Positions 7,542-26,988 of a stretch of 26,988 bases of DNA are shown here, one piece after another. Both the position numbers and the translations under genes were made by a program. How positions within the stretch are numbered: the first letter of the stretch is position 1; the number at the start of each line of letters is the position of its first letter. A model generated the notes under the pieces. It was not told where the DNA came from and ran no database searches. It saw nothing but the letters and a program-made list of their open reading frames with translations. The DNA is from a virus (taxonomy: Duplodnaviria > Heunggongvirae > Uroviricota > Caudoviricetes). The DNA lies in IMG/VR virus record IMGVR_UViG_2698536339_000014, positions 1-26,988 of that record; one strand, 5' to 3'.

Positions 7542-7576
7542 TGCTCAACCTGAAATAACAACTAAGTGAGATGAAT

Positions 7577-8065
7577 ATGGCAGCACCAAAGGGCAACCGA
7601 TTTTGGGAGGCCCGCAGTAGTCATGGGCGAAATCCTAAATTCGAATCGCCTGATGCGCTGTGGGCTGCTTGTTGTGAATACTTCGAGTGGGCTGATGATA
7701 ACCCGCTATGGGAGGGTAAGGTATTTTCATATCAGGGAGAAATAATTAAGGCTAATGTCCCTAAGATGCGAGCCATGACTATTTCAGGATTGTGTACCTT
7801 CCTTGATATCACCAGGCAAACATGGGGAACCTTCCGGTCAATGGAAGGTTTTTCTGACGTCACATCACGAGCGGAAGACATCATCTACGACCAGAAATTC
7901 TCTGGCGCAGCCGCTGACCTTCTCAACGCTAACATCATCGCCCGTGATTTGGGCCTCAAAGAGCAGTCGCAAGTTGAAGACGTGACACCTGATAAGGGAG
8001 ATCGCGATAAGCGACGCTCTCGTATCAAGGAGCTATTCAACCGTGGAACTGGACGCGATTCTTGA
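7577..8065 (+). CDS. terS: terminase small subunit (P22 gp3-like)
   Basis: [25 protein letters not shown]... and the C-terminal [25 protein letters not shown] match my recollection of P22 gp3; alternative start 7571. Confidence 0.85.
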
Positions 8066-9542
8066 TAACCTGAGCGACGAAGAGCAAATCGAATTGCTCG
8101 AGCTACTCGAAGAAGAAGAGAACTACCGGAACACACACCTGCTATATGAATTTACGCCATACAGCAAACAGCGTGAGTTCATCGACGCCGGGCATGACTA
8201 TCCAGAGCGATGTTTTATGGCTGGTAACCAGCTTGGTAAGTCATTTACTGGTGCTGCTGAAGTCGCGTTTCACCTTACCGGGCGTTATCCGGGCACAAAA
8301 GGCTATCCTGCTGATGGTAAATATGGCGGTGAGTGGAAAGGTAAGCGTTTCTATGAGCCTGTTGTCTTCTGGATTGGCGGCGAGACAAACGAGACTGTAA
8401 CCAAAACGACTCAACGCATCCTGTGCGGTCGTATCGAAGAGAATGATGAGCCTGGCTACGGTTCCATACCGAAAGAAGACATCATTAGCTGGAAGAAGTC
8501 TCCTTTCTTTCCGAACCTTGTTGATCATCTTCTGGTTAAGCATCACACGGCTGATGGCGTTGAAGATGGCATTTCAATCTGCTACTTCAAGCCATACTCG
8601 CAAGGCCGTGCTCGCTGGCAGGGTGACACAATCCATGGCGTGTGGTTTGACGAAGAACCACCATACAGCATTTATGGCGAAGGTCTTACCCGTACCAACA
8701 AATACGGGCAATTCTCAATTCTGACGTTTACCCCGCTGATGGGGATGTCTGACGTTGTTACCAAGTTCCTGAAGAATCCCAGCAGGTCGCAGAAAGTGGT
8801 CAACATGACCATCTACGACGCTGAGCACTACACAGACGAACAGAAAGAGCAAATCATCGCATCTTATCCTGAGCATGAGAGAGAGGCGCGTGCTCGCGGT
8901 ATTCCTACGATGGGTAGTGGTCGAATCTTCCAGATACCGGAAGAGACTATTAAGTGTCAGCCGTTCGAGTGTCCTGATCACTTCTACGTAATTGGTGGGA
9001 TGGATTTCGGATGGGATCACCCACAGGCGCAGGTTCAGCTTTGGTGGGATAAGGACGCAGACACAATCTACGTTTCACGCGTGTGGAAGGCGAAAGAAAA
9101 AACAGCTGTTCAGGCATGGGGAGCTGTTAAATCATGGGCGCATAAAGTGCCAACCGCATGGCCTCATGACGGAAACCAGCATGAGAAGGGCGGCGGTGAG
9201 CAGCTTAAAGGGCAGTACGCGGACGCTGGTTTTATGATGTTGCAGGAGCATGCGACATGGCCTGATGGCGGTAATGCTGTTGAGCCTGGCATCACTGAAT
9301 TGCGCGACATGATGCTCGATGGTCGCTTCAAAGTATTCAACACCTGTGAGCCATTCTTTGAGGAGTTCCGCCTCTATCACCGTGATGAAAACGGGAAAAT
9401 CGTCAAGCTTAACGACGACGTTCTCTCAGCCGTTCGCTATGCATACATGATGCGCCGCTTCGCCAAAATGATGCGCGACATCAAAAAACCAAAAGAGAAA
9501 AAGATACCAGCCCCAATCAGGCCCATCGCACGGAGAACTTAA
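8043..9542 (+). CDS. terL: terminase large subunit (P22 gp2-like)
   Basis: 499 aa, same length as P22 gp2; [38 protein letters not shown]-terminus; overlaps the terS 3' end. Confidence 0.92.
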
Positions 9543-11708
9543 ATGGCCGACGAAAACAGACTCAATTCCATTCTGTGTAAGTTTGACGCGGACTGGATGG
9601 CGAGCGATGAAGCCAGAACCGAGGCGACAAATGACCTGTATTTTAGCCGAGTGTCGCAATGGGATGACTGGCTATCAAACTACACCACCCTGCAATATCG
9701 CGGACAATTCGATGTTGTTCGCCCGGTGGTCAGGAAACTAGTCGCAGAGATGCGCCGGAACCCTATCGACGTTCTATTCAGACCAAAAGACGGCGCTAAT
9801 CCTGATGCTGCCGATGTGCTGATGGGGATGTATCGTACTGATATGCGCCATAACACGGCAAAAATTGCCGTTAACGTTGGCGTTCGTGAGCAGATAGAGT
9901 CCGGCGTTGGTGCATGGCGTCTGGTCACACAGTACGAAGACAACGACCCAACAAGCAACAATCAGGTAATCAGACGCCTGCCAATCCATGAGGCCTGCTC
10001 ACACGTCATATGGGACGCCAACAGCAAGCAGATGGATAAGAGCGACGCTAAGCACTGCACGGTGATTAACGCCTTGTCGCGCAATGGTTGGAAAGAGTTC
10101 GCAGAGGATTACGGTATTGATCCGGATACCTTGCCATCTTTCCAGAATCCGAACGATACATGGCTGTTTCCGTGGGTATCGAATGATGTCGTCTACGTCG
10201 CTGAGTATTACGAGGTCGAAGAGAAGAAAGAGAAAGTCTTCATCTACCGCGACCCGCTGACAGGTGAGCCGGTCAGCTATTACCAGCAGGATATCAAAGA
10301 CGTCATCGACGACCTGGCTAATCGTGGATTTATTAAGGTAGCAGAGCGTAAGGTCAAGCGTCGGCGTGTGTATAAGTCGATCATCACCTGCACGCAGATA
10401 CTGAAAGACCGCGAGAAGATAGCCGGAGAGCATATTCCAATCGTTCCAGTGTATGGCGAATGGTCATTCGCTGGTGACAAGGAGTGCTACGAAGGAGTGG
10501 TAAGGCTGACGAAAGACGGTCAGCGCCTTCGTAACATGATCATGTCATTCAACGCCGATATTGTTGCTCGTTCACCGAAGAAGAAACCGACCTTCTTCCC
10601 TGAGCAAATCGAAGGCTACGAATACATGTACGGTGGAAATGATGACTATCCGTACTATCTGCAGAACAAGACCGATGAAAACGGTAACGACCTGCCGATT
10701 GGTCCAATCTCCTACATGGAAAACCCTGAAGTGCCGCAAGCCAACGCTTACATGCTTGAGGCTGCCACCAACGCAGTGAAAGAGGTGGCTAGTCTTGGCG
10801 TGGATGCACAGGCAGCAAACTCTCAGGTCGCTTTCGATACCGTCAATCAACTGAACATGCGGGCAGACCTTGAGACATACGTGTTTCAGGATAACCTGGC
10901 TACCGCAATGCGACGTGATGGCGAGATTTATGCCTCAATGGTCAATGATATTTATGACGTTCCTCGTCATGTAACGCTGACACTTGAAGATGGAAGCGAG
11001 AAAGACGTTCAACTCTATGCGCAAGTTGTCGATTACCAGTCCGGTAATGTGGTCACACTCAACGACATTCGTGGTCGCTATGAGTGCTATACAGACGTTG
11101 GTCCATCCTTCCAGAGCATGAAGGAACAGAACCGCGCAGAGATTCAGGAATTGCTCACTAAGGTTCCGCAAGGTACTCCAGAGTTCCAGATGCTGATGCT
11201 GCAATACTTCACGCTGCTTGATGGTAAAGGCGTCGAGATGATGCGAGAGTACGCTAACAAGCAACTGGTGATGATGGGGCTGAAGAAACCAGAAACACCT
11301 GAAGAGATGGAGATGGTACAGCAGGCACAACAACAGCCGCAGCAGCCATCAGCAGAGCAAATTCAGGCGCAGGGTATCCTTCTGCAAGGTCAGGCTGAAT
11401 TGCTCAAGGCAGAGAACCAACAGGCGCAGATTCAGGTTGAAGCTGCCAAGGTTGAAGCCCAAAACCAACTCAACGCCGCGAAGATTGCAGAAATCTTCAA
11501 CAATATGGACCTCGACAAGCAGGCAGAACTGCGTGAGTACCTCAAGCTCGTAGGTCAATTCCAGCAACAGCGCAGCAAAGATGCTCGTGCTAACGCTGAG
11601 CTGCTTCTTAAAGATGCAGACCAGACTCATTCACAACGCATGGATTTCGCGAATCTTATGCGTCAAGTTCAAATCCCCTCCGGCGGAGTAGCCGAGACAC
11701 CTCAATAA
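9543..11708 (+). CDS. portal protein (P22 gp1-like)
   Basis: 721 aa (P22 gp1 is about 725 aa); immediately follows terL; Q-rich C-terminal barrel segment. Confidence 0.9.
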
Positions 11709-11721
11709 GAGAGAGTTAATC

Positions 11722-12633
11722 ATGGACCAAACCACCGACATTCAGGCTTCTGAAGAATTAACCCTGCCCGGCAATCATGCAGCGGCATCTGCTGATGGCT
11801 TAGTTGTCGATAATGCCAACGACAACGCAGGTCAGGAAGAAGGCTTCGAGATTGTCCTGAAAGACGATGAGAAACCAAAACAAGACCCGGCAACTAATGC
11901 TGAATTTGCCCGTCGCCGCATCGAACGCAAACGCCAGCGTGAGCTTGAGCAGCAGATGGAAGCGGTTAAGCGTGGAGAGTTGCCGGAGCACCTGCGGGTG
12001 AACCCTGAGTTACCAAAACAACCAGACCCTAACGATTATCTTTCCGAAGATGCACTGGCTAAGTACGACTATGACCAGAGCCGCGCACTGGCTGCCTTCC
12101 AGCAGGCAAACAGTGAATGGCAGATCAAGGCTATGGACGCACGAAGCCAGGCTGTCGCCGAGCAGGGTCGCAAAACTCAGGAGTTCACCCAGCAATCAGC
12201 GCAATACGTCGAGGCTGCCCGTAAGCACTACGACGCAGCGGAAAAGCTCAATATCCCTGACTATCAGGAGAAAGAGGATGCATTCATGCAACTGGTGCCG
12301 CCAGCAGTCGGTGCCGACATCATGCGCCTCTTCCCGGAGAAATCCGCTGCTCTCATGTATCACCTTGGTGCTAATCCTGAGAAAACACGCCAGTTGCTGG
12401 CGATGGACGGGCAATCCGCGCTGATTGAACTCACTCGACTGTCAGAACGTTTAACTCTCAAGCCTCGAGCCAAACCTGTTTCAGAAGCCCCGTTACCTGA
12501 TGAACCCATTCAGGGACACGCTGTTGCTGCAAATATCTCTGCGATTGAAAAGCAGATGGAAGCGGCAGCAAACAAAGGGGATGTAGAGACATACCGCAAG
12601 CTTAAGGCGCAACTGAATAAAGGAATTCGATAA
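11722..12633 (+). CDS. scaffolding protein (P22 gp8-like)
   Basis: 303 aa, same as P22 gp8; acidic, helix-rich; lies between portal and coat. Confidence 0.85.
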
Positions 12634-13155
12634 TTATTTCGATATCGTGATGTTGTTTTCCTCGTCAAACTTTCTGATTACTTCTTTCGCCTCTTCGAAT
12701 GAAGAACATACTTTTTGCACTCTTGCATTAAGCAGTCGCTTATGAGCGATCCATCTTTTCCGCGTGTTGCAAAAGTAAACTCCAGATATTCCGCTGGAGT
12801 TATTTTTAGATAGTTTGATTCTATTCCTTTGGTTTGCTGATTTTTTCACAAGACGAAGATTTTCAATTCTGTTGTCGTGGCGAATCCCATTTATATGGTC
12901 AATTTCCATGCCTTCTGGAATATCTCCGTTAAACATCACCCATACGATGCGGTGTGCTAGCCACTTAATGCCGTTAATTCTTATGCGGATATATCCATTG
13001 CTTTCTAAAAGACCAGCAACTTTCCCAGCGTGTTTTGCATTCCAAACGTTGTGATAGTTGCGATTCTTTTTGTTGTTGAAAAATTCAGAGCTTCTGGCTT
13101 TCCAAACCAAAGAGCCATCGCGGTATTCGAAGTATTCATTCAGTTCCATGCTCAT
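12634..13155 (-). mobile_element. free-standing HNH homing endonuclease with C-terminal AP2 DNA-binding domain
   Basis: 173 aa on the opposite strand; HNH motif EIDHINGIRHDNRIENLRLV; AP2-like SGISGVYFCNTRKRWIAHKRL...FEEAKEV; AT-rich; inserted exactly between the scaffold stop and the coat start. Confidence 0.85.
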
Positions 13156-13222
13156 AACCCTAATGCGCTATATGTTGATATAACAATAGTATAGCACATA
13201 AAGAAAGTAAGGTATTCAATAT

Positions 13223-14518
13223 ATGACTCTCAAAGAAGGGCAGTTAGTTACTTACGCTATCGATGAAATCATCGAAACCGTCCAGAACCTGACGCCAATG
13301 GCGTCCAAAGTGACAAAATACACCCCTCCGGCAGAATCCATGCAGCGTTCAAGCAACACCGTGTGGATGCCTGTTGAGCAGGAAGCGCCAACTCAGACTG
13401 GCTGGGATTTAACTGGCAACGCAACCGGGATTCTGGAGCTGTCCGTGAAATGCAACATGGGCGATCCGGATAACGATTTCTTCGAGCTTCGTGCAGATGA
13501 CCTGCGTGATGAGCGTTCTTACCGTCGCCGAATCCAGGCATCTGCCAAAAAACTGGCGAATAACATTGAGTCAGCGATTGCCAAACAGGCAACTGAAATG
13601 GGCTCGCTTGTTGTTCACGATACCCGCGCAATTGGTCCATCTACTGGCCTGTCTGGCTGGGATTTTGTGTCTGATGCAGAGCGCCTGATGTTCTCCCGAG
13701 AACTCAACCGCGACATGGGAATCAGTTACTTCCTGAACCCTGACGATTACCGCAAAGCAGGCCGCAACCTGGTAGATGGTGACATCTTCGGGCGCGTTCC
13801 TGAAGACACGTATCGCAACGGTACTATTCAGCGTCAGATTGCTGGCTTTGATGAAATTCTTCGCTCACCGAAACTTCCGGCAGTTACCAAGTCAACCGCT
13901 ACTGGTGTAACTGTTTCTGGTGCGCAGAAGTTTAAGCCGCAGGCATACACTCTTGATACCGATGGTAACAAAGAGAACGTCGACAACCGTGTTGCAACGG
14001 TGACCGTATCCTCCACCACCGGGTTTAAGCGCGGCGACAAAATCAGCTTCACTGGTGTGAAATTCCTGTCTCAGATGGCGAAGAACGTGCTGACTGATGA
14101 TGCTACTTTCTCAATCACCCGTGTGATCGATGGTACTCACATCGAAATCACGCCGAAGCCGATTGCACTGGATGACGCGTCACTGACAAAAGAAGAGAAG
14201 GCTTACGCTAACGTAAACACCTCTCTTGCTGATACCACTCCGGTAAACGTTCTGAACGTGGCAACAACCACCGCTAACGTGTTCTGGGCTGATGACTCAA
14301 TCCGTCTGCTGTCTCAGCCGATCCCGGTAACCCATGAACTGTTTGCTGGTATGAAAACGTCTTCCTTCAGCATTCCTGGCATTGGTGTTAACGGCATCTT
14401 CGCAACGCAGGGTGATATCAACACTCTGTCTGGTAAGTGCCGTATTGCTGTGTGGTATTCAGCATGTGCTGTACGACCAGAGGCAATTGGTGTTGGTCTG
14501 CCTAACCAGACTGCGTGA
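13223..14518 (+). CDS. major capsid (coat) protein, P22 gp5 family
   Basis: 431 aa; collinear with P22 coat as I recall it (…QRSSNT.WMPVEQE…, …[21 protein letters not shown]…, …[18 protein letters not shown]… motifs). Confidence 0.95.
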
Positions 14519-14525
14519 TAACCAG

Positions 14526-14548
14526 AGGGAGCTTCGGCTCCCTTTTTT
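14526..14548 (+). terminator. intrinsic terminator or attenuator immediately after the coat gene
   Basis: AGGGAGC-TTCG-GCTCCCT perfect 7-bp stem with a tetraloop, then T6. Confidence 0.65.
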
Positions 14549-14562
14549 ATCTGGAGACAAGC

Positions 14563-14824
<262 letters not shown>

Positions 14825-14847
<23 letters not shown>

Positions 14848-15325
14848 TTTAGTTCTTGCGGCATTACGTAAGCTCGGTGTGGCATCAAATGCCACGTTAA
14901 CCGATGTCGAACCGCAGTCTATGGAAGATGGCGTCAACGACCTTGAAATGATGATGGCTGAATGGCTTGGCGGTGATGTGTCACCTGGCATCAACGTTGG
15001 CTACATTTTTGCTGATGCAGATATCGCTCCGGATCCGGGAGATGAGCACGGCTTATCAAATAACGCTATCAATGCCGTCATTTTCAACCTTGCCTGCCGC
15101 ATTGCTCCAGATTATGCGCTGGAAGCGTCTGCAAAACTTATAACCACTGCCAGATACGGGAAAGAGCGACTCGTCAAACTGTCTGCAATGGACAGAGCAA
15201 AAGCCGCTAAATGTAAGTCCGGTTATCCAAACCGTATGCCTGTTGGTAGCGGTAACCAGTTGGCGAAGTGGAACGGTTGGAGTTACTTCCACCGGAAGGA
15301 ACCTTGCGATAACGGGAGCGAATAA
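14825..15325 (+). CDS. tail accessory / portal-closure protein (P22 gp4-like)
   Basis: 166 aa, same as P22 gp4; [33 protein letters not shown] matches the recalled gp4 N-terminus; the ORF track start at 14702 is an extension through the repeat. Confidence 0.85.
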
Positions 15326-24600: not shown

Positions 24601-25731
24601 TTATTTTACTGAATTTCTTAAAATAAAGCCTTCTCTGCAAGATTTTACTTTAAAACGAAGAAAAAAACTCTCAAATAAGTAAAATGATGCTATTGAAACT
24701 GCATATGATACAATAAATGAAGCAGCTATGTAAGTGAATCCATCAGTTGTGATTCCTACAAATGAAAACATTTTTCTTACTATTGAAAAACATAGCAAGT
24801 GCCACATGTAAAGGCCGTAACTTATATTTCCTGTAAATCTAAGGAATTTTAAGTTAAATATCTTGTTACAAGTCGTTATAAATAGTTGTAAAATATTGCT
24901 GTCTGTTGCTGTCTGTTGCTGTCTGTTGCTGTCTGTCATTTTTCCTGATGAATAATATAAGAACCAAATAATTGATGAGAATGTCATCCCTAATGATGTA
25001 AATAGGTATAATCCCTTGCCAACCCACTGCTCTGGATGCCAAAAATTATTAATCCCAATATTTATAACGCCATATGCAGTAACAATAGAACCAACTATAA
25101 ATGTCAACATGGCTATTTGTGGTGCTTTATTGCTATCCTTTATATGAGCAAAGATAGCGCCTAGGACAAGCATATCAACACAACTGATAAGAGTTACGTT
25201 AGTTATATACGGATTACCTCCAGACATATTGAATATAAAATATCTAGAAGCTAGTGAGATTATCACAAGAAATACAAAAAAACATACTTCCTTTGGTGGG
25301 CGAATAAAAAATATTACAATAGGCCAAATCCAATAGAATTGTTCTTCTATAGCTAGAGACCATGTGTGTCCAAGTATTCCTGGTGTTGTTATGTTATTAC
25401 CAATGTAATAGTTTTGTAAGTAGGTGACAAACCAAGAATAACCTTCCGTACTTCCTCCCATTGATTTAACTATTACAAAATTAACCGCAAGGTATAGATA
25501 GAATAGAGGAAATATTCTCAACGATCTATTTATTAGAAACTTTTTAATATACCAGGCAAATCTATACTTCCTGTCTTCCTCAAGAATTGATGTGATCAGG
25601 AACCCCGAAAGGCAAAAGAATAATGGAACACCAGCCCACCCCAAAGATGCCCAAGGTATATTAGAATGAAATAACATGACCATTATGACGGCAATTCCTC
25701 TAGCTCCATCAAGAGAAGTAACGTGTTTCAT
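24601..25731 (-). CDS. acyltransferase-3 family integral membrane protein (candidate O-antigen acetyltransferase, Oac/OafA-like)
   Basis: 376 aa; N-terminal LDGARGIAVIMVMLFH and C-terminal FTGNISYGLYMWH motifs; about 10 hydrophobic segments; strongly AT-rich; sits between tailspike and int, as oac does in Sf6. Confidence 0.8.
   Translation of the reverse strand: MKHVTSLDGARGIAVIMVMLFHSNIPWASLGWAGVPLFFCLSGFLITSILEEDRKYRFAWYIKKFLINRSLRIFPLFYLYLAVNFVIVKSMGGSTEGYSWFVTYLQNYYIGNNITTPGILGHTWSLAIEEQFYWIWPIVIFFIRPPKEVCFFVFLVIISLASRYFIFNMSGGNPYITNVTLISCVDMLVLGAIFAHIKDSNKAPQIAMLTFIVGSIVTAYGVINIGINNFWHPEQWVGKGLYLFTSLGMTFSSIIWFLYYSSGKMTDSNRQQQTATDSNILQLFITTCNKIFNLKFLRFTGNISYGLYMWHLLCFSIVRKMFSFVGITTDGFTYIAASFIVSYAVSIASFYLFESFFLRFKVKSCREGFILRNSVK
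24898..24937 (-). repeat. 10-bp tandem repeat x4 (GCTGTCTGTT on +; last unit GCTGTCTGTC) inside the acyltransferase coding sequence
   Basis: Counted directly in the sequence; encodes TDSNRQQQTATDS in the gene frame. Confidence 0.95.
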
Positions 25732-25821
25732 TGTATTTTCCGATTATTTTGTGTGATTGTTAATGAGAACCTTGACAGTATACACGTGATCTACTTATAC
25801 CATAAACTGGTATGTCATTTT

Positions 25822-26988
25822 TCATGAACTAACTTTAAACTTCTCATCAAGCCAGTCCGCCCACCACTGCATCATTTCTCTGCGCTTATCGAGATACTGA
25901 GCATGGTTGTAAATCCCGCGCACAGATCCGCCGTTGGCATGTGCCAGTTGCACTTCAATAGCATCAGCAGGCCATTCGTGCTCGTTCATAATCGTGCTGA
26001 ATTCATGCCTGAATCCGTGACCGCTTTCCAGACCCTCATAGCCGATTTGTTTGATCACAAGCAATACCGCGTTCTCGCAGATTGGCTTCTTCTTATCGTT
26101 GCGCCCGGCAAAAACAAACTCTGATACTGGTTTAGTGATTGAGCTTAGCGTAGTGAGAAGTTCAACTACCTGGTCTGACATAGGAACCACATGAATTTTG
26201 CGTCCCTTCATCACACTGGCGTCGATGGTGATAATCCTGTTTTCAAAATCGACGTTCTTCCATAGCATGGAACGAAGCTCTTTCGTTCTTAGGGCAGTGT
26301 AGCGTAAAACCTTGGTGGCAATGAGCGATACGATACTTCCTGAAAATGTTGCCAGTGCTTTATTGAATGCCGGGATCTGGTCTGCAGGAAGAAACGGGAA
26401 GTTCTTCTTGCGGTACCCCTTCATGGCGTCAGCAAGGTCAGGTGCCGGGTTATATTTAGCCCTACCAGTGACAATAGCGTAACGGAAAACCTCGCCGCAT
26501 CTTCTGCGGGCTTTGTTGGCTCGCTCCATTGCACCGCGATCTTCAAACCTGCGGATTACTTCCAGCAGTTGCATCGGCTCAATATCCTGAATTTCAAGGC
26601 CGCCAATGATAGGTAAAATGTCGTCGTCAAACATTTTGGCAAGTTCAGTCGCATATCCTACAGACCAGACTTGCTTCTTGTGCTCGTACCATTCCTTGTA
26701 AATGGCGCTAAAGGAATTGTTGTTAGACGAAGCCTTTTTCGCTTTTACCGGATCGATGCCAACCGAGATGTCTTTCCTCGCAGTCCATGCTTTATCCCTT
26801 GCCTCTTGCAAAGTCATAAGCGGATATTTTCCTACGGTCAGGATTTTCTCCTTACCGTCAATCTTGTAGCGAAGCTGCCATACCTTTTTCCCTGACACAG
26901 GGACATAAAGGTACAGGCCATTACCATCGAGTAGGCGGTATGGTTTTTCTTTCGGCTTTGCTGCTTCAATCTGCTTAACGGTGAGCAT
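25822..26988 (-). CDS. int: tyrosine integrase (P4/P22-type, N-terminal arm-binding domain)
   Basis: 388 aa; HGFRHEF...GIYNHAQYL catalytic region; start codon is the last 3 nt of the window (reverse strand). Confidence 0.9.
   Translation of the reverse strand: MLTVKQIEAAKPKEKPYRLLDGNGLYLYVPVSGKKVWQLRYKIDGKEKILTVGKYPLMTLQEARDKAWTARKDISVGIDPVKAKKASSNNNSFSAIYKEWYEHKKQVWSVGYATELAKMFDDDILPIIGGLEIQDIEPMQLLEVIRRFEDRGAMERANKARRRCGEVFRYAIVTGRAKYNPAPDLADAMKGYRKKNFPFLPADQIPAFNKALATFSGSIVSLIATKVLRYTALRTKELRSMLWKNVDFENRIITIDASVMKGRKIHVVPMSDQVVELLTTLSSITKPVSEFVFAGRNDKKKPICENAVLLVIKQIGYEGLESGHGFRHEFSTIMNEHEWPADAIEVQLAHANGGSVRGIYNHAQYLDKRREMMQWWADWLDEKFKVSS

What the first reader, a model, noticed from the sequence alone, without database searches (positions are those of the whole stretch)
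12634..13155. HNH-AP2 homing endonuclease inserted antisense between scaffold and coat genes
A 173-codon AT-rich ORF with an HNH nuclease motif and an AP2-type DNA-binding domain fills the scaffold-coat interval on the opposite strand. Its stop codon abuts the scaffold stop and its start lies 67 bp from the coat start. Free-standing homing endonucleases invade conserved structural genes to spread in mixed infections; this one marks a recent mobile insertion into an otherwise collinear P22-type operon and may cut cognate phages that lack it.
Basis: partly seen in the sequence, partly recalled or inferred. Interest (0 to 1): 0.5.

Follow-up and report, generated by a model that had tools for sequence, protein, structure and literature searches.

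The report
Mobile HNH homing-endonuclease cassette in P22-like phage
A selfish nuclease gene has inserted between the scaffold and coat genes of a P22-like E. coli phage, bringing its own signals and a rewritten start of the coat gene; it is a clear example of a known kind of element, not a new kind.

Summary
A 173-codon, AT-rich ORF (12634-13155, minus strand; 39% GC vs 51-53% in the flanks) abuts the scaffold stop and starts 67 nt from the coat start. It has an intact I-HmuI-type HNH_3 domain and a divergent AP2-fold C-terminus, which is seen in the family profile and the predicted structure but is below Pfam's own threshold.

The window matches phages Dewey and Louie, where the gene is already annotated "HNH endonuclease". 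About 90% of close relatives lack it (197 of 217 E. coli genomes with this junction); in all empty junctions read, scaffold stop and coat start overlap as TAATG.

The mobile unit is larger than the ORF, about 628 bp (12634-13261):
- the HNH gene
- a conserved extended -10 promoter candidate
- a new ribosome-binding site for coat
- 39 nt of recoded coat 5' end (14 changes in 36 nt against a 2-3% background)

The cassette is 4.4 times less diverse than its flanks. Insert-bearing genomes are interspersed with empty ones.

Diverged orthologues (59-82% aa) occupy the same slot in diverged P22-like phages, and two other HNH lineages also use it. So the insertion is recent in this lineage, but the association with the site is old.

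Cleavage activity and target site are inferred, not shown. Verdict: a new member of a known kind, of moderate interest.

The parts
11722..12633 (+). Scaffolding protein gene (left flank). Its stop TAA is at 12631-12633, and the left boundary of the cassette lies immediately after it.
   Evidence: Pfam Phage-scaffold E=1.7e-179. The last 30 nt are identical to the empty-site phages.
12634..13261 (.). The whole mobile cassette (~628 bp): the HNH gene, the 67-nt regulatory gap and the recoded first 13 coat codons.
   Evidence: It is absent from APC_JM3.2, Bas106, IME10 and HZ41, whose flanks are 97-99% identical. Cassette diversity is 0.38% against 1.67% for the flanks.
12634..13155 (-). HNH-AP2 endonuclease ORF, 173 aa (171 aa if translation starts at 13149).
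   Evidence: Under purifying selection: dN/dS 0.059 against L009. All 11 IMG/VR copies are intact.
12961..13155 (-). N-terminal region (residues 1-65). Part of it aligns with the I-HmuI N-terminal DNA-binding region.
12826..12960 (-). HNH_3 catalytic domain (residues 66-110), with D86, H87, N99 and N108.
   Evidence: Pfam HNH_3, 78 bits. These residues are invariant in A2 and align to I-HmuI D74/H75/N87/N96.
12658..12795 (-). AP2-fold DNA-binding domain (residues ~121-166): three beta-strands and a helix.
13188..13196 (-). Candidate extended -10 promoter element for the HNH gene (TGCTATACT on the minus strand).
   Evidence: Conserved as TGCTATACT or TGCTATAAT in the window, L009 and L010 despite ~20-28% overall DNA divergence. 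The consensus scan did not flag it, because there is no good -35. Inferred only.
13158..13161 (-). Shine-Dalgarno-like AGGG for the HNH gene.
   Evidence: GAGG or AGGG is present upstream of the start in the window, L009 and L010. Inferred.
13208..13213 (+). A new Shine-Dalgarno sequence (TAAGGT) for coat, supplied by the cassette. It replaces the TAATG stop/start overlap found in empty sites.
   Evidence: Conserved as GTA(A/G)G(G/A) 9-11 nt upstream of the coat ATG in all four insert-bearing lineages. Empty sites have TAATG.
13223..13261 (+). Recoded 5' end of the coat gene (codons 1-13). It is donor-derived and is the candidate target-site immunity patch.
   Evidence: There are 14 mismatches at 13226-13261 against all four empty-site phages, with the next mismatch at 13345 or beyond and a background of 2-3%. 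It matches the L009 coat 5' end at 33/39 but allele A at only 25/39. G18+G21 occurs in all four insert-bearing lineages and in 0 of 52 distinct empty junctions.
13223..14518 (+). Coat protein gene (right flank).
   Evidence: Pfam P22_CoatProtein E=5.1e-163.

Best explanation
This is a free-standing homing-endonuclease cassette of the HNH(I-HmuI type)+AP2 family, sitting in the scaffold-coat junction of a P22-like (Lederbergvirus) E. coli phage or prophage.

Shown:
- The ~628-bp unit (12634-13261) is present in a minority of otherwise 97-99% identical genomes.
- Its boundaries are precise and its composition is foreign.
- It carries a donor-type recoded coat 5' end.
- It is much less diverse than its flanks and is scattered across flank backgrounds.
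- The encoded protein keeps all catalytic residues and is under strong purifying selection.

Inferred mechanism:
1. During mixed infection, or when an infecting phage meets a prophage, the enzyme is made from its own leftward promoter.
2. It binds the conserved junction of insert-free genomes (TTAAAGGAAT..ATAATGGC..GAAGGTCAA) through its AP2 and N-terminal DNA-binding parts.
3. Its His-Me finger nicks or cuts nearby.
4. Recombinational repair using the insert-bearing genome copies the cassette in.

The insert-bearing genome would be protected because the site is split by the insertion and because the adjacent coat codons are rewritten, mostly synonymously. The cassette limits harm to its host phage by supplying a new ribosome-binding site for coat in place of the lost TAATG translational coupling.
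For: Domains and active site.

Empty sites and exact junctions. Frequencies are 20 of 217 E. coli genomes and 10 of the 80 closest IMG/VR loci.

Recoded patch: 14 of 36 nt differ against a 2-3% background. It is closer to the coat of the diverged insert-bearing lineage L009 than to its own lineage's empty allele.

Independent replicate of flank co-conversion: L011 against its empty partner L258 shows 14% mismatch within ~160-230 nt of the insert and ~1-5% further out.

A third allele (B, 8 genomes) has no HNH gene but carries the insert-linked nt 12-39. This is what partial conversion or HEG loss would leave.

G18+G21 is seen in all four diverged insert-bearing lineages and in none of 52 distinct empty junctions.

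Population test: cassette pi 0.38% vs flanks 1.67%. 10 of 12 insert-bearing genomes have an empty genome as nearest flank neighbour. L023 differs from the empty Bas106 by 3 of 2163 nt.

Selection: dN/dS 0.059 and all 11 IMG/VR copies intact.

Conserved promoter and SD elements.

HNH+AP2 is a recognised HEG family, and HEGs cluster next to capsid genes (PMC10448857).
Against: There is no biochemical or genetic evidence of cleavage, of the target site, or of directional transfer.

Frequent homologous recombination among P22-like phages could by itself scatter a passive insert over flank backgrounds (cannot separate the two).

The G18+G21 association is not phylogenetically independent, because the patch may simply travel with the cassette.

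I-HmuI, the closest solved relative, is a nicking enzyme (my own knowledge), so double-strand cleavage is not assured.

Orthologues have diverged about as much as their flanks. That is also compatible with long vertical residence and little ongoing homing.

One N-terminally truncated variant exists (P0005).

The promoter was not picked up by the consensus scan.
Confidence: 0.75

Rival explanations
1. Its main role is prophage-encoded exclusion. The nuclease is expressed in lysogens and destroys the incoming DNA of related P22-like phages that carry the unprotected junction, so it is kept because it benefits the prophage and host rather than because it homes.
For: The carriers are temperate phages and prophages (integrase at 25822-26988; 20 E. 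coli chromosomes). A conserved extended -10 element could be constitutive. The gene runs antisense to the late operon, so it is transcribed independently of it. There is strong purifying selection.
Against: PADLOC matches only generic 'homing endonuclease' models and no defence system. The donor-type recoded flank, the co-conversion gradient and allele B are signatures of copying into the site, which exclusion alone does not predict. The two roles are not mutually exclusive.
Confidence: 0.1
2. It is a passive relic: an endonuclease gene that once homed but is no longer active. It would now be inherited vertically and shuffled by ordinary homologous recombination between P22-like phages.
For: Orthologues have diverged as much as their flanks in three other lineages. 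General recombination could explain the interspersion with empty genomes. One truncated copy exists.
Against: dN/dS is 0.059 with dS near saturation, all catalytic residues are invariant, and 11 of 11 IMG/VR copies are intact. An inactive gene would decay. The cassette is 4.4 times less diverse than its flanks, which indicates a recent spread.
Confidence: 0.1
3. It is a domesticated DNA-binding regulator. The AP2 domain would bind near the scaffold-coat junction and tune scaffold or coat expression, with the nuclease function secondary or lost.
For: An AP2 fold is present. The insertion removes the TAATG coupling between scaffold and coat and replaces it with a separate SD, so expression control of coat is altered. 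Some homing endonucleases also act as repressors (I-TevI; my own knowledge).
Against: The complete HNH catalytic set is invariant across 52 homologues. About 90% of close relatives assemble capsids without it. No regulatory target is identified.
Confidence: 0.04
4. It is a packaging-associated HNH nuclease that assists terminase, as in HK97-like cos phages.
For: It lies within the head/packaging gene block.
Against: It is not adjacent to terminase (gp3 at 7571-8065, TerL at 8043-9542). It belongs to the I-HmuI/HNH_3 type with an AP2 domain. It is absent from ~90% of close relatives, which nevertheless are viable phages (Bas106, IME10, APC_JM3.2). P22-type phages package by a headful mechanism (my own knowledge).
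Confidence: 0.01

Closest known systems
I-HmuI (Bacillus phage SPO1 intron-encoded HNH homing endonuclease; PDB 1u3e)
   Different: I-HmuI is encoded inside a group I intron and has a helix-turn-helix C-terminal domain (my own knowledge). This protein is free-standing and has an AP2-fold C-terminus. Identity is only ~22-23%. I-HmuI nicks one strand; what this enzyme does is unknown.
HNH-AP2 homing endonuclease family of phages, cyanobacteria and protists (Magnani et al. 2004, cited in PMC10448857)
   Same: The architecture is the same, with an N-terminal HNH and a C-terminal AP2. 21 of 52 homologues carry both Pfam domains.
   Different: This protein's AP2 copy is divergent and falls below Pfam's cut-off. 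I did not read the original paper, so the comparison rests on the description.
Free-standing homing endonucleases of T-even phages (Seg and Mob proteins)
   Same: The genes sit between conserved genes and are present or absent among close relatives. Flanking markers are co-converted. The carrier genome is protected by sequence differences at the target (my own knowledge of that literature). The recoded coat 5' end, the L011/L258 gradient and allele B are the analogous footprints here.
   Different: Seg proteins are GIY-YIG enzymes. The hosts there are virulent myoviruses, whereas this is a temperate podovirus or prophage. No cleavage or marker-exclusion data exist for this element.
IPA-HNH HEGs and 'HEG islands' next to essential genes in ICP1 and other phages (Barth, Dunham & Seed 2023, PMC10448857)
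   Same: Both are HNH+AP2 HEGs located beside capsid or other essential genes and sitting at boundaries of genetic exchange. Here the junction hosts three different HNH lineages.
   Different: IPA-HNH domains are described as too divergent for the Pfam HNH_3 profile. This protein matches HNH_3 strongly, so it is not an IPA-HNH member.

Membership tests
HNH_3 / I-HmuI-type His-Me finger endonuclease | Match to Pfam HNH_3 above the curated cut-off | tested here: met
   78 bits vs 24.8, E=3.9e-22, residues 66-110.
HNH_3 / I-HmuI-type His-Me finger endonuclease | Catalytic and metal-binding residues present (I-HmuI D74, H75, N96 and the structural N87) | tested here: met
   D86, H87, N99 and N108 align to them and are invariant in 52 homologues. 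The roles of the residues are from my own knowledge of I-HmuI.
HNH_3 / I-HmuI-type His-Me finger endonuclease | Beta-beta-alpha-metal fold | tested here: met
HNH_3 / I-HmuI-type His-Me finger endonuclease | Metal-dependent DNA nicking or cleavage | not testable with these tools
   Needs purified protein.
AP2 DNA-binding domain (PF00847) | Match to Pfam AP2 above the curated cut-off | tested here: not met
   17.6 bits vs 33.3, E=0.0049, only profile positions 1-19.
AP2 DNA-binding domain (PF00847) | Homology detectable at family level | tested here: met
   21 of 52 aligned homologues hit AP2 at E<=0.001, best 1.4e-11. The family profile hits WRI1 AP2 at 5.8e-5 and TEM1 AP2 at 0.0019.
AP2 DNA-binding domain (PF00847) | Three-stranded antiparallel sheet packed on one helix | tested here: met
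Free-standing homing endonuclease gene (functional class) | Presence/absence polymorphism at one precise site among close relatives | tested here: met
Free-standing homing endonuclease gene (functional class) | Donor-type sequence (co-conversion) in the flanks next to the insert | tested here: met
   A 39-nt recoded coat 5' end. A divergence gradient on both sides in L011 vs L258.
Free-standing homing endonuclease gene (functional class) | Horizontal spread independent of the flanking background | tested here: inconclusive
   The pattern fits: cassette pi 0.38% vs flanks 1.67%, and 10 of 12 nearest neighbours are empty. Ordinary recombination of the flanks could give the same interspersion.
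Free-standing homing endonuclease gene (functional class) | Enzyme cuts the insert-free allele and spares the insert-bearing allele | not testable with these tools
   There is only a comparative footprint: G18+G21 in all insert-bearing lineages and 0 of 52 empty junctions.
Free-standing homing endonuclease gene (functional class) | Super-Mendelian inheritance in mixed infection | not testable with these tools
   Needs a co-infection experiment.
IPA-HNH HEGs (Barth et al. 2023) | HNH domain too divergent to be found by the Pfam HNH_3 profile | tested here: not met
   There is a strong HNH_3 match.
Terminase-associated packaging HNH (HK97 gp74 type) | Adjacent to terminase genes and required in all relatives | tested here: not met
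   It is separated from gp3 and TerL by portal and scaffold and absent from ~90% of relatives.

The most novel reading that the evidence does not exclude
The rewritten coat codons would be a portable immunity patch that can travel without the nuclease gene. Allele B is an empty site carrying nt 12-39 of the patch. On this reading, P22-like phages are in a three-way contest between sensitive, endonuclease-bearing and resistant-but-empty alleles at a junction that at least three HNH lineages target. In lysogens the enzyme would double as an exclusion weapon that cuts the start of the incoming phage's coat gene.
Probability: 0.2. Interest if true: 0.55.

Novelty: new member of a known kind. Interest (0 to 1): 0.35.

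Why it matters
The gene is already annotated as an HNH endonuclease, so its existence is not news. The anatomy is what adds value: a compact cassette carrying its own promoter candidate, a replacement ribosome-binding site for the essential downstream gene and a rewritten target flank, plus three natural alleles (sensitive, occupied, empty with patch).

The system is unusually easy to test. Cultured phages with the cassette (Dewey, Louie) and without it (CurroJimenez/Bas106) infect the same E. coli K-12 O16 host and come from one laboratory. A metagenomic insert-bearing genome differs from Bas106 by only 3 of 2163 flank positions.

It could serve as a simple temperate-phage model for homing, co-conversion tracts and resistance alleles. 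Three HNH lineages sharing one junction adds a data point to the idea that nuclease genes mark hotspots of exchange next to capsid genes.

Tried and rejected
- **Species-representative genomes.** I scanned them with the four-member family alignment to learn the hosts of the diverged lineages. Only distant relatives (<=49%) turned up, and none of them was checked for this junction, so the hosts remain unknown.
- **Casjens & Thuman-Commike 2011.** I looked for prior mention of this gene in this P22-like comparative paper. It is not held in the library, so I cannot exclude that it was noted there.
- **Dewey/Louie and BASEL papers.** Neither discusses the gene.
- **Plus-strand hairpin with T-run at 12778-12801.** It could act as a terminator within the late operon, but it is not conserved in L010 or L015, so I treated it as incidental.
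- **mRNA structure at the new coat start.** An unusual structure might have explained the recoding as a translational adaptation. The fold gives z = -0.82, which is unremarkable. Allele B also keeps TAATG coupling yet carries most of the patch, which argues against a purely translational reason.
- **PADLOC and NCBIfam.** PADLOC gave only generic homing-endonuclease models and NCBIfam gave nothing.
- **Second HNH paralogue in the window.** None was found. The second place reported in Dewey and Louie was not followed.
- **Consensus promoter scan.** It found no minus-strand promoter in the gap. The extended -10 candidate rests on cross-lineage conservation only.
- **A scripting error** dropped most empty loci. 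It was corrected, and only one search is used.

Full report
**1. What is in the window.**
The region lies in the head-gene block of a P22-like temperate phage or prophage. In order, the window carries:
- NinG, a Q-type antiterminator and Rha
- small and large terminase
- portal (9543-11708)
- scaffold (11722-12633) and coat (13223-14518)
- gp4 and further tail genes
- an acyltransferase and an integrase at the right end

Between scaffold and coat, on the opposite strand, lies a 173-codon ORF at 12634-13155. Its stop codon directly abuts the scaffold stop. Its start is 67 nt from the coat start. It is 39.3% GC and the 67-nt gap is 28.4%, against 51-53% for the neighbouring genes. Every coordinate and description in the finding is correct.

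**2. What the protein is.**
- Pfam HNH_3 matches residues 66-110 at E=3.9e-22, and PHROG 99 'HNH endonuclease' at 1.3e-50.
- The best solved relative is the phage SPO1 homing endonuclease I-HmuI (E=6.9e-8 with a 52-sequence family profile).
- In the 52-sequence alignment H68, D86, H87, N89, D94, N95, R96, I97, N99, L100 and N108 are invariant. D86/H87/N99/N108 align with I-HmuI D74/H75/N87/N96. The active site is therefore intact.
- The AP2 claim is weaker on this sequence alone: 17.6 bits against a cut-off of 33.3.
- AP2 does hold at family level. 21 of 52 homologues pass Pfam AP2. The family profile reaches the plant WRI1 and TEM1 AP2 domains (5.8e-5 and 0.0019).
- HNH followed by AP2 is a recognised homing-endonuclease architecture (Magnani 2004, as described in PMC10448857).

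**3. Which genome, and who lacks the gene.**
The scaffold-to-coat segment is 98.7% identical to Escherichia phages Dewey and Louie, where the ORF is annotated 'HNH endonuclease'. The papers describing those phages do not discuss it.

Phages APC_JM3.2, CurroJimenez/Bas106, IME10 and HZ41 match both flanks at 97-98% but lack about 590 bp. In them the scaffold stop and coat start overlap as TAATG.

Among 5426 complete E. coli genomes, 217 carry this junction. Only 20 of these have the insert, all at >=98.9% identity. Among the 80 IMG/VR loci with the closest coat genes, 10 have it and 70 do not.

**4. The inserted unit is bigger than the ORF.**
Aligned base by base, insert-bearing and empty genomes are identical up to the scaffold TAA. 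On the right they become alike again only after coat nucleotide 39.

Positions 13226-13261 carry 14 differences against every empty-site phage. The next difference is at 13345 or beyond, and the background is 2-3%. Eleven of the 14 changes are synonymous; the protein changes are A2T, N4K and L13I.

This patch matches the coat 5' end of a diverged insert-bearing lineage (L009) at 33 of 39 positions. It matches its own lineage's empty allele at only 25 of 39. Yet the coat as a whole is 81% identical to L009 and 97% to the empty allele. The patch is therefore donor DNA that arrived with the gene. The cassette is about 628 bp, 12634-13261.

The 67-nt gap holds elements conserved across lineages that are otherwise 20-40% diverged:
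- on the minus strand, TGCTATACT (13196-13188), an extended -10-like element, about 32 nt upstream of the HNH start
- a GAGG/AGGG Shine-Dalgarno motif for the HNH gene
- on the plus strand, TAAGGT (13208-13213), 10 nt before the coat ATG

The cassette thus replaces the lost TAATG translational coupling with a separate ribosome-binding site for the essential coat gene. These roles are inferred from conservation. The consensus promoter scan did not flag the site.

**5. A third allele.**
Eight E. coli genomes (for example AVS0578) have no HNH gene and keep TAATG and codons 2-3 of the common allele. However, they carry coat nt 12-39 exactly as in the insert-bearing genomes. None of about 145 distinct empty junctions in the IMG/VR survey has this state.

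The simplest reading is that allele B descends from an encounter with an insert-bearing genome. That could be partial gene conversion without transfer of the gene, or loss of the gene by recombination with a switch point at nt 9-12. Either way it is the kind of 'empty but altered' allele that a homing cycle produces. Whether it is resistant to cleavage is unknown.

**6. The association with this site is old, and the site is a hotspot.**
Proteins 82%, 74% and 59-61% identical to this one are encoded in exactly the same slot and orientation in metagenomic P22-like contigs. The table compares each with the window protein.

| Locus | HNH aa identity | Coat aa identity | Scaffold aa identity |
|---|---|---|---|
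| L009 | 82% | 88% | 75% |
| L010-L014 | 74% | 72-74% | 73.5-73.8% |
| L015 | 59-61% | 68% | 51% |

The gene is under strong purifying selection: dN/dS is 0.059 against L009, and dS is saturated for the other pairs. All 11 near-identical IMG/VR copies are intact.

Two further, only distantly related HNH-AP2-like genes occupy the same junction in other P22-like genomes: L236 (178 aa, ~43% identity) and L249 (182 aa, ~36% identity). L236 again has rewritten coat codons relative to its empty partner L235. So 'recent insertion' is right for the E. coli IME10/Bas106-like lineage, but the relationship between this endonuclease lineage and the junction is ancient.

**7. Footprints of copying.**
In the L011 lineage, comparison with a near-identical empty partner (L258) gives the following.

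| Region | Mismatches |
|---|---|
| Last 160 nt of scaffold | 22 |
| Preceding 360 nt of scaffold | 3 |
| First 228 nt of coat | 33 (14%) |
| Remaining 1038 nt of coat | 49 (4.7%) |

This is a divergence gradient centred on the insert, as expected from co-conversion of donor flanks.

Across 52 distinct empty junctions the block TTAAAGGAAT..ATAATGGC..GAAGGTCA is conserved, even at synonymous positions. None of them combines G at coat positions 18 and 21. All four diverged insert-bearing lineages and allele B do (GAAGGGCAG). This marks coat codons 6-7 as candidate specificity or immunity positions. The caveat is that the patch may simply be inherited with the cassette, so the lineages are not independent.

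**8. Population test within the E. coli lineage.**
Using 12 distinct insert-bearing and 67 distinct empty genomes and 2163 nt of scaffold plus coat (nt 46 onward):
- Flank diversity is the same within insert-bearing genomes (1.67%), within empties (1.54%) and between the groups (1.61%).
- Insert-bearing genomes are no more alike than random subsets.
- 10 of 12 have an empty genome as their nearest neighbour. L023 differs from Bas106 by only 3 positions.
- The cassette and the patch show only 0.38% and 0.37% diversity.

A single young cassette is therefore distributed over a pre-existing, recombining population. Active homing explains this directly. Frequent general recombination of the flanks could contribute, and the data cannot separate the two.

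**9. Mechanism and rivals.**
The best explanation (confidence about 0.75) is an active free-standing HNH-AP2 homing-endonuclease cassette. It would recognise the conserved scaffold-stop/coat-start junction of insert-free genomes, nick or cut there, and be copied in by recombinational repair. Self-protection would come from the split site and the rewritten coat codons. Activity, cut site and directionality are inferred.

- **Prophage-borne exclusion.** Plausible as an added benefit, but it does not predict the conversion footprints. PADLOC gives only generic homing-endonuclease models.
- **Inactive relic.** Contradicted by the selection and intactness data.
- **Domesticated AP2 regulator.** Contradicted by the invariant catalytic residues.
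- **Terminase-helper HNH.** Contradicted by its position, its type and its absence from about 90% of viable relatives.

**10. Novelty and score.**
The gene is already annotated, and its class, architecture and habit of sitting next to capsid genes are all known. New here, as far as the searchable literature shows, are:
- the exact cassette anatomy
- the donor-type recoded coat start
- the three-allele system
- the sharing of one junction by three HNH lineages

I could not check the main P22-like comparative paper.

This is a new member of a known kind, of moderate interest (0.35). Its appeal lies mainly in how directly it can be tested with existing cultured phages that infect one host.

Noticed in passing
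window 14708-14777: A perfect hexanucleotide tandem repeat (CAGAGC x 11.7) lies just downstream of coat. It reads as (EP)n in ORF 14515-14847 and as (SQ)n in an N-terminal extension of the gp4 ORF (14702-15325). Relatives have hypothetical ORFs of different lengths here (231-339 nt), and APC_JM3.2 annotates a repeat_region, so the array length seems to vary between phages.
   Followed up: partly
L236:1892-2428 (-) and L249:1899-2447 (-): Two other HNH-AP2-like genes, only ~43% and ~36% identical to this one, sit antisense in the same scaffold-coat junction of other P22-like genomes. L236 is inserted after TAATG and its coat reads GAAGGACAG. L249 has an altered coat start (ATGCTTAAT...). The junction looks like a hotspot for several endonuclease lineages.
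   Followed up: partly
L006:2514-2553 (E. coli AVS0578, NZ_CP124374) and 7 other E. coli genomes (H101-H108): An empty-site allele keeps the TAATG overlap but carries the insert-linked coat nt 12-39. It is identical to the window from coat nt 10 to 196 and then diverges more than ordinary empty alleles do.
   Followed up: yes
window 13147-13155: The HNH start codon is ambiguous. Dewey annotates the first ATG (173 aa), whereas RefSeq annotates the E. coli copy from the third codon (171 aa, WP_029403254.1). The AGGG motif is 2 nt from the first ATG and 8 nt from the second.
   Followed up: partly
protein P0005 (E. coli, NCBI; 102 aa): This is an N-terminally truncated version of the endonuclease (MGDVYGDIPEG... 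in place of ...VWVMFNGDIPEG...), identical over the rest. It is either a frameshifted, decaying copy or an assembly error.
   Followed up: no
window 12778-12801 (+ strand): An 8-bp hairpin followed by ATTTTTAG lies inside the HNH gene and is oriented as a terminator for the late operon. It is partly kept in L009 but not in L010 or L015, so it is probably incidental.
   Followed up: yes
window 24601-26988 (- strand): An Acyl_transf_3 acyltransferase gene (24601-25731) lies next to the integrase (25822-26988, which reaches the window end). This looks like a lysogenic-conversion module of the kind P22-like phages carry for O-antigen modification. That function is my inference.
   Followed up: no
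Dewey PQ850600 and Louie PQ850616, outside the compared segment: tblastn with the HNH protein reported two matching places in each of these phage genomes. Within the window only one was found, so the second (weaker) match lies elsewhere or is marginal.
   Followed up: no
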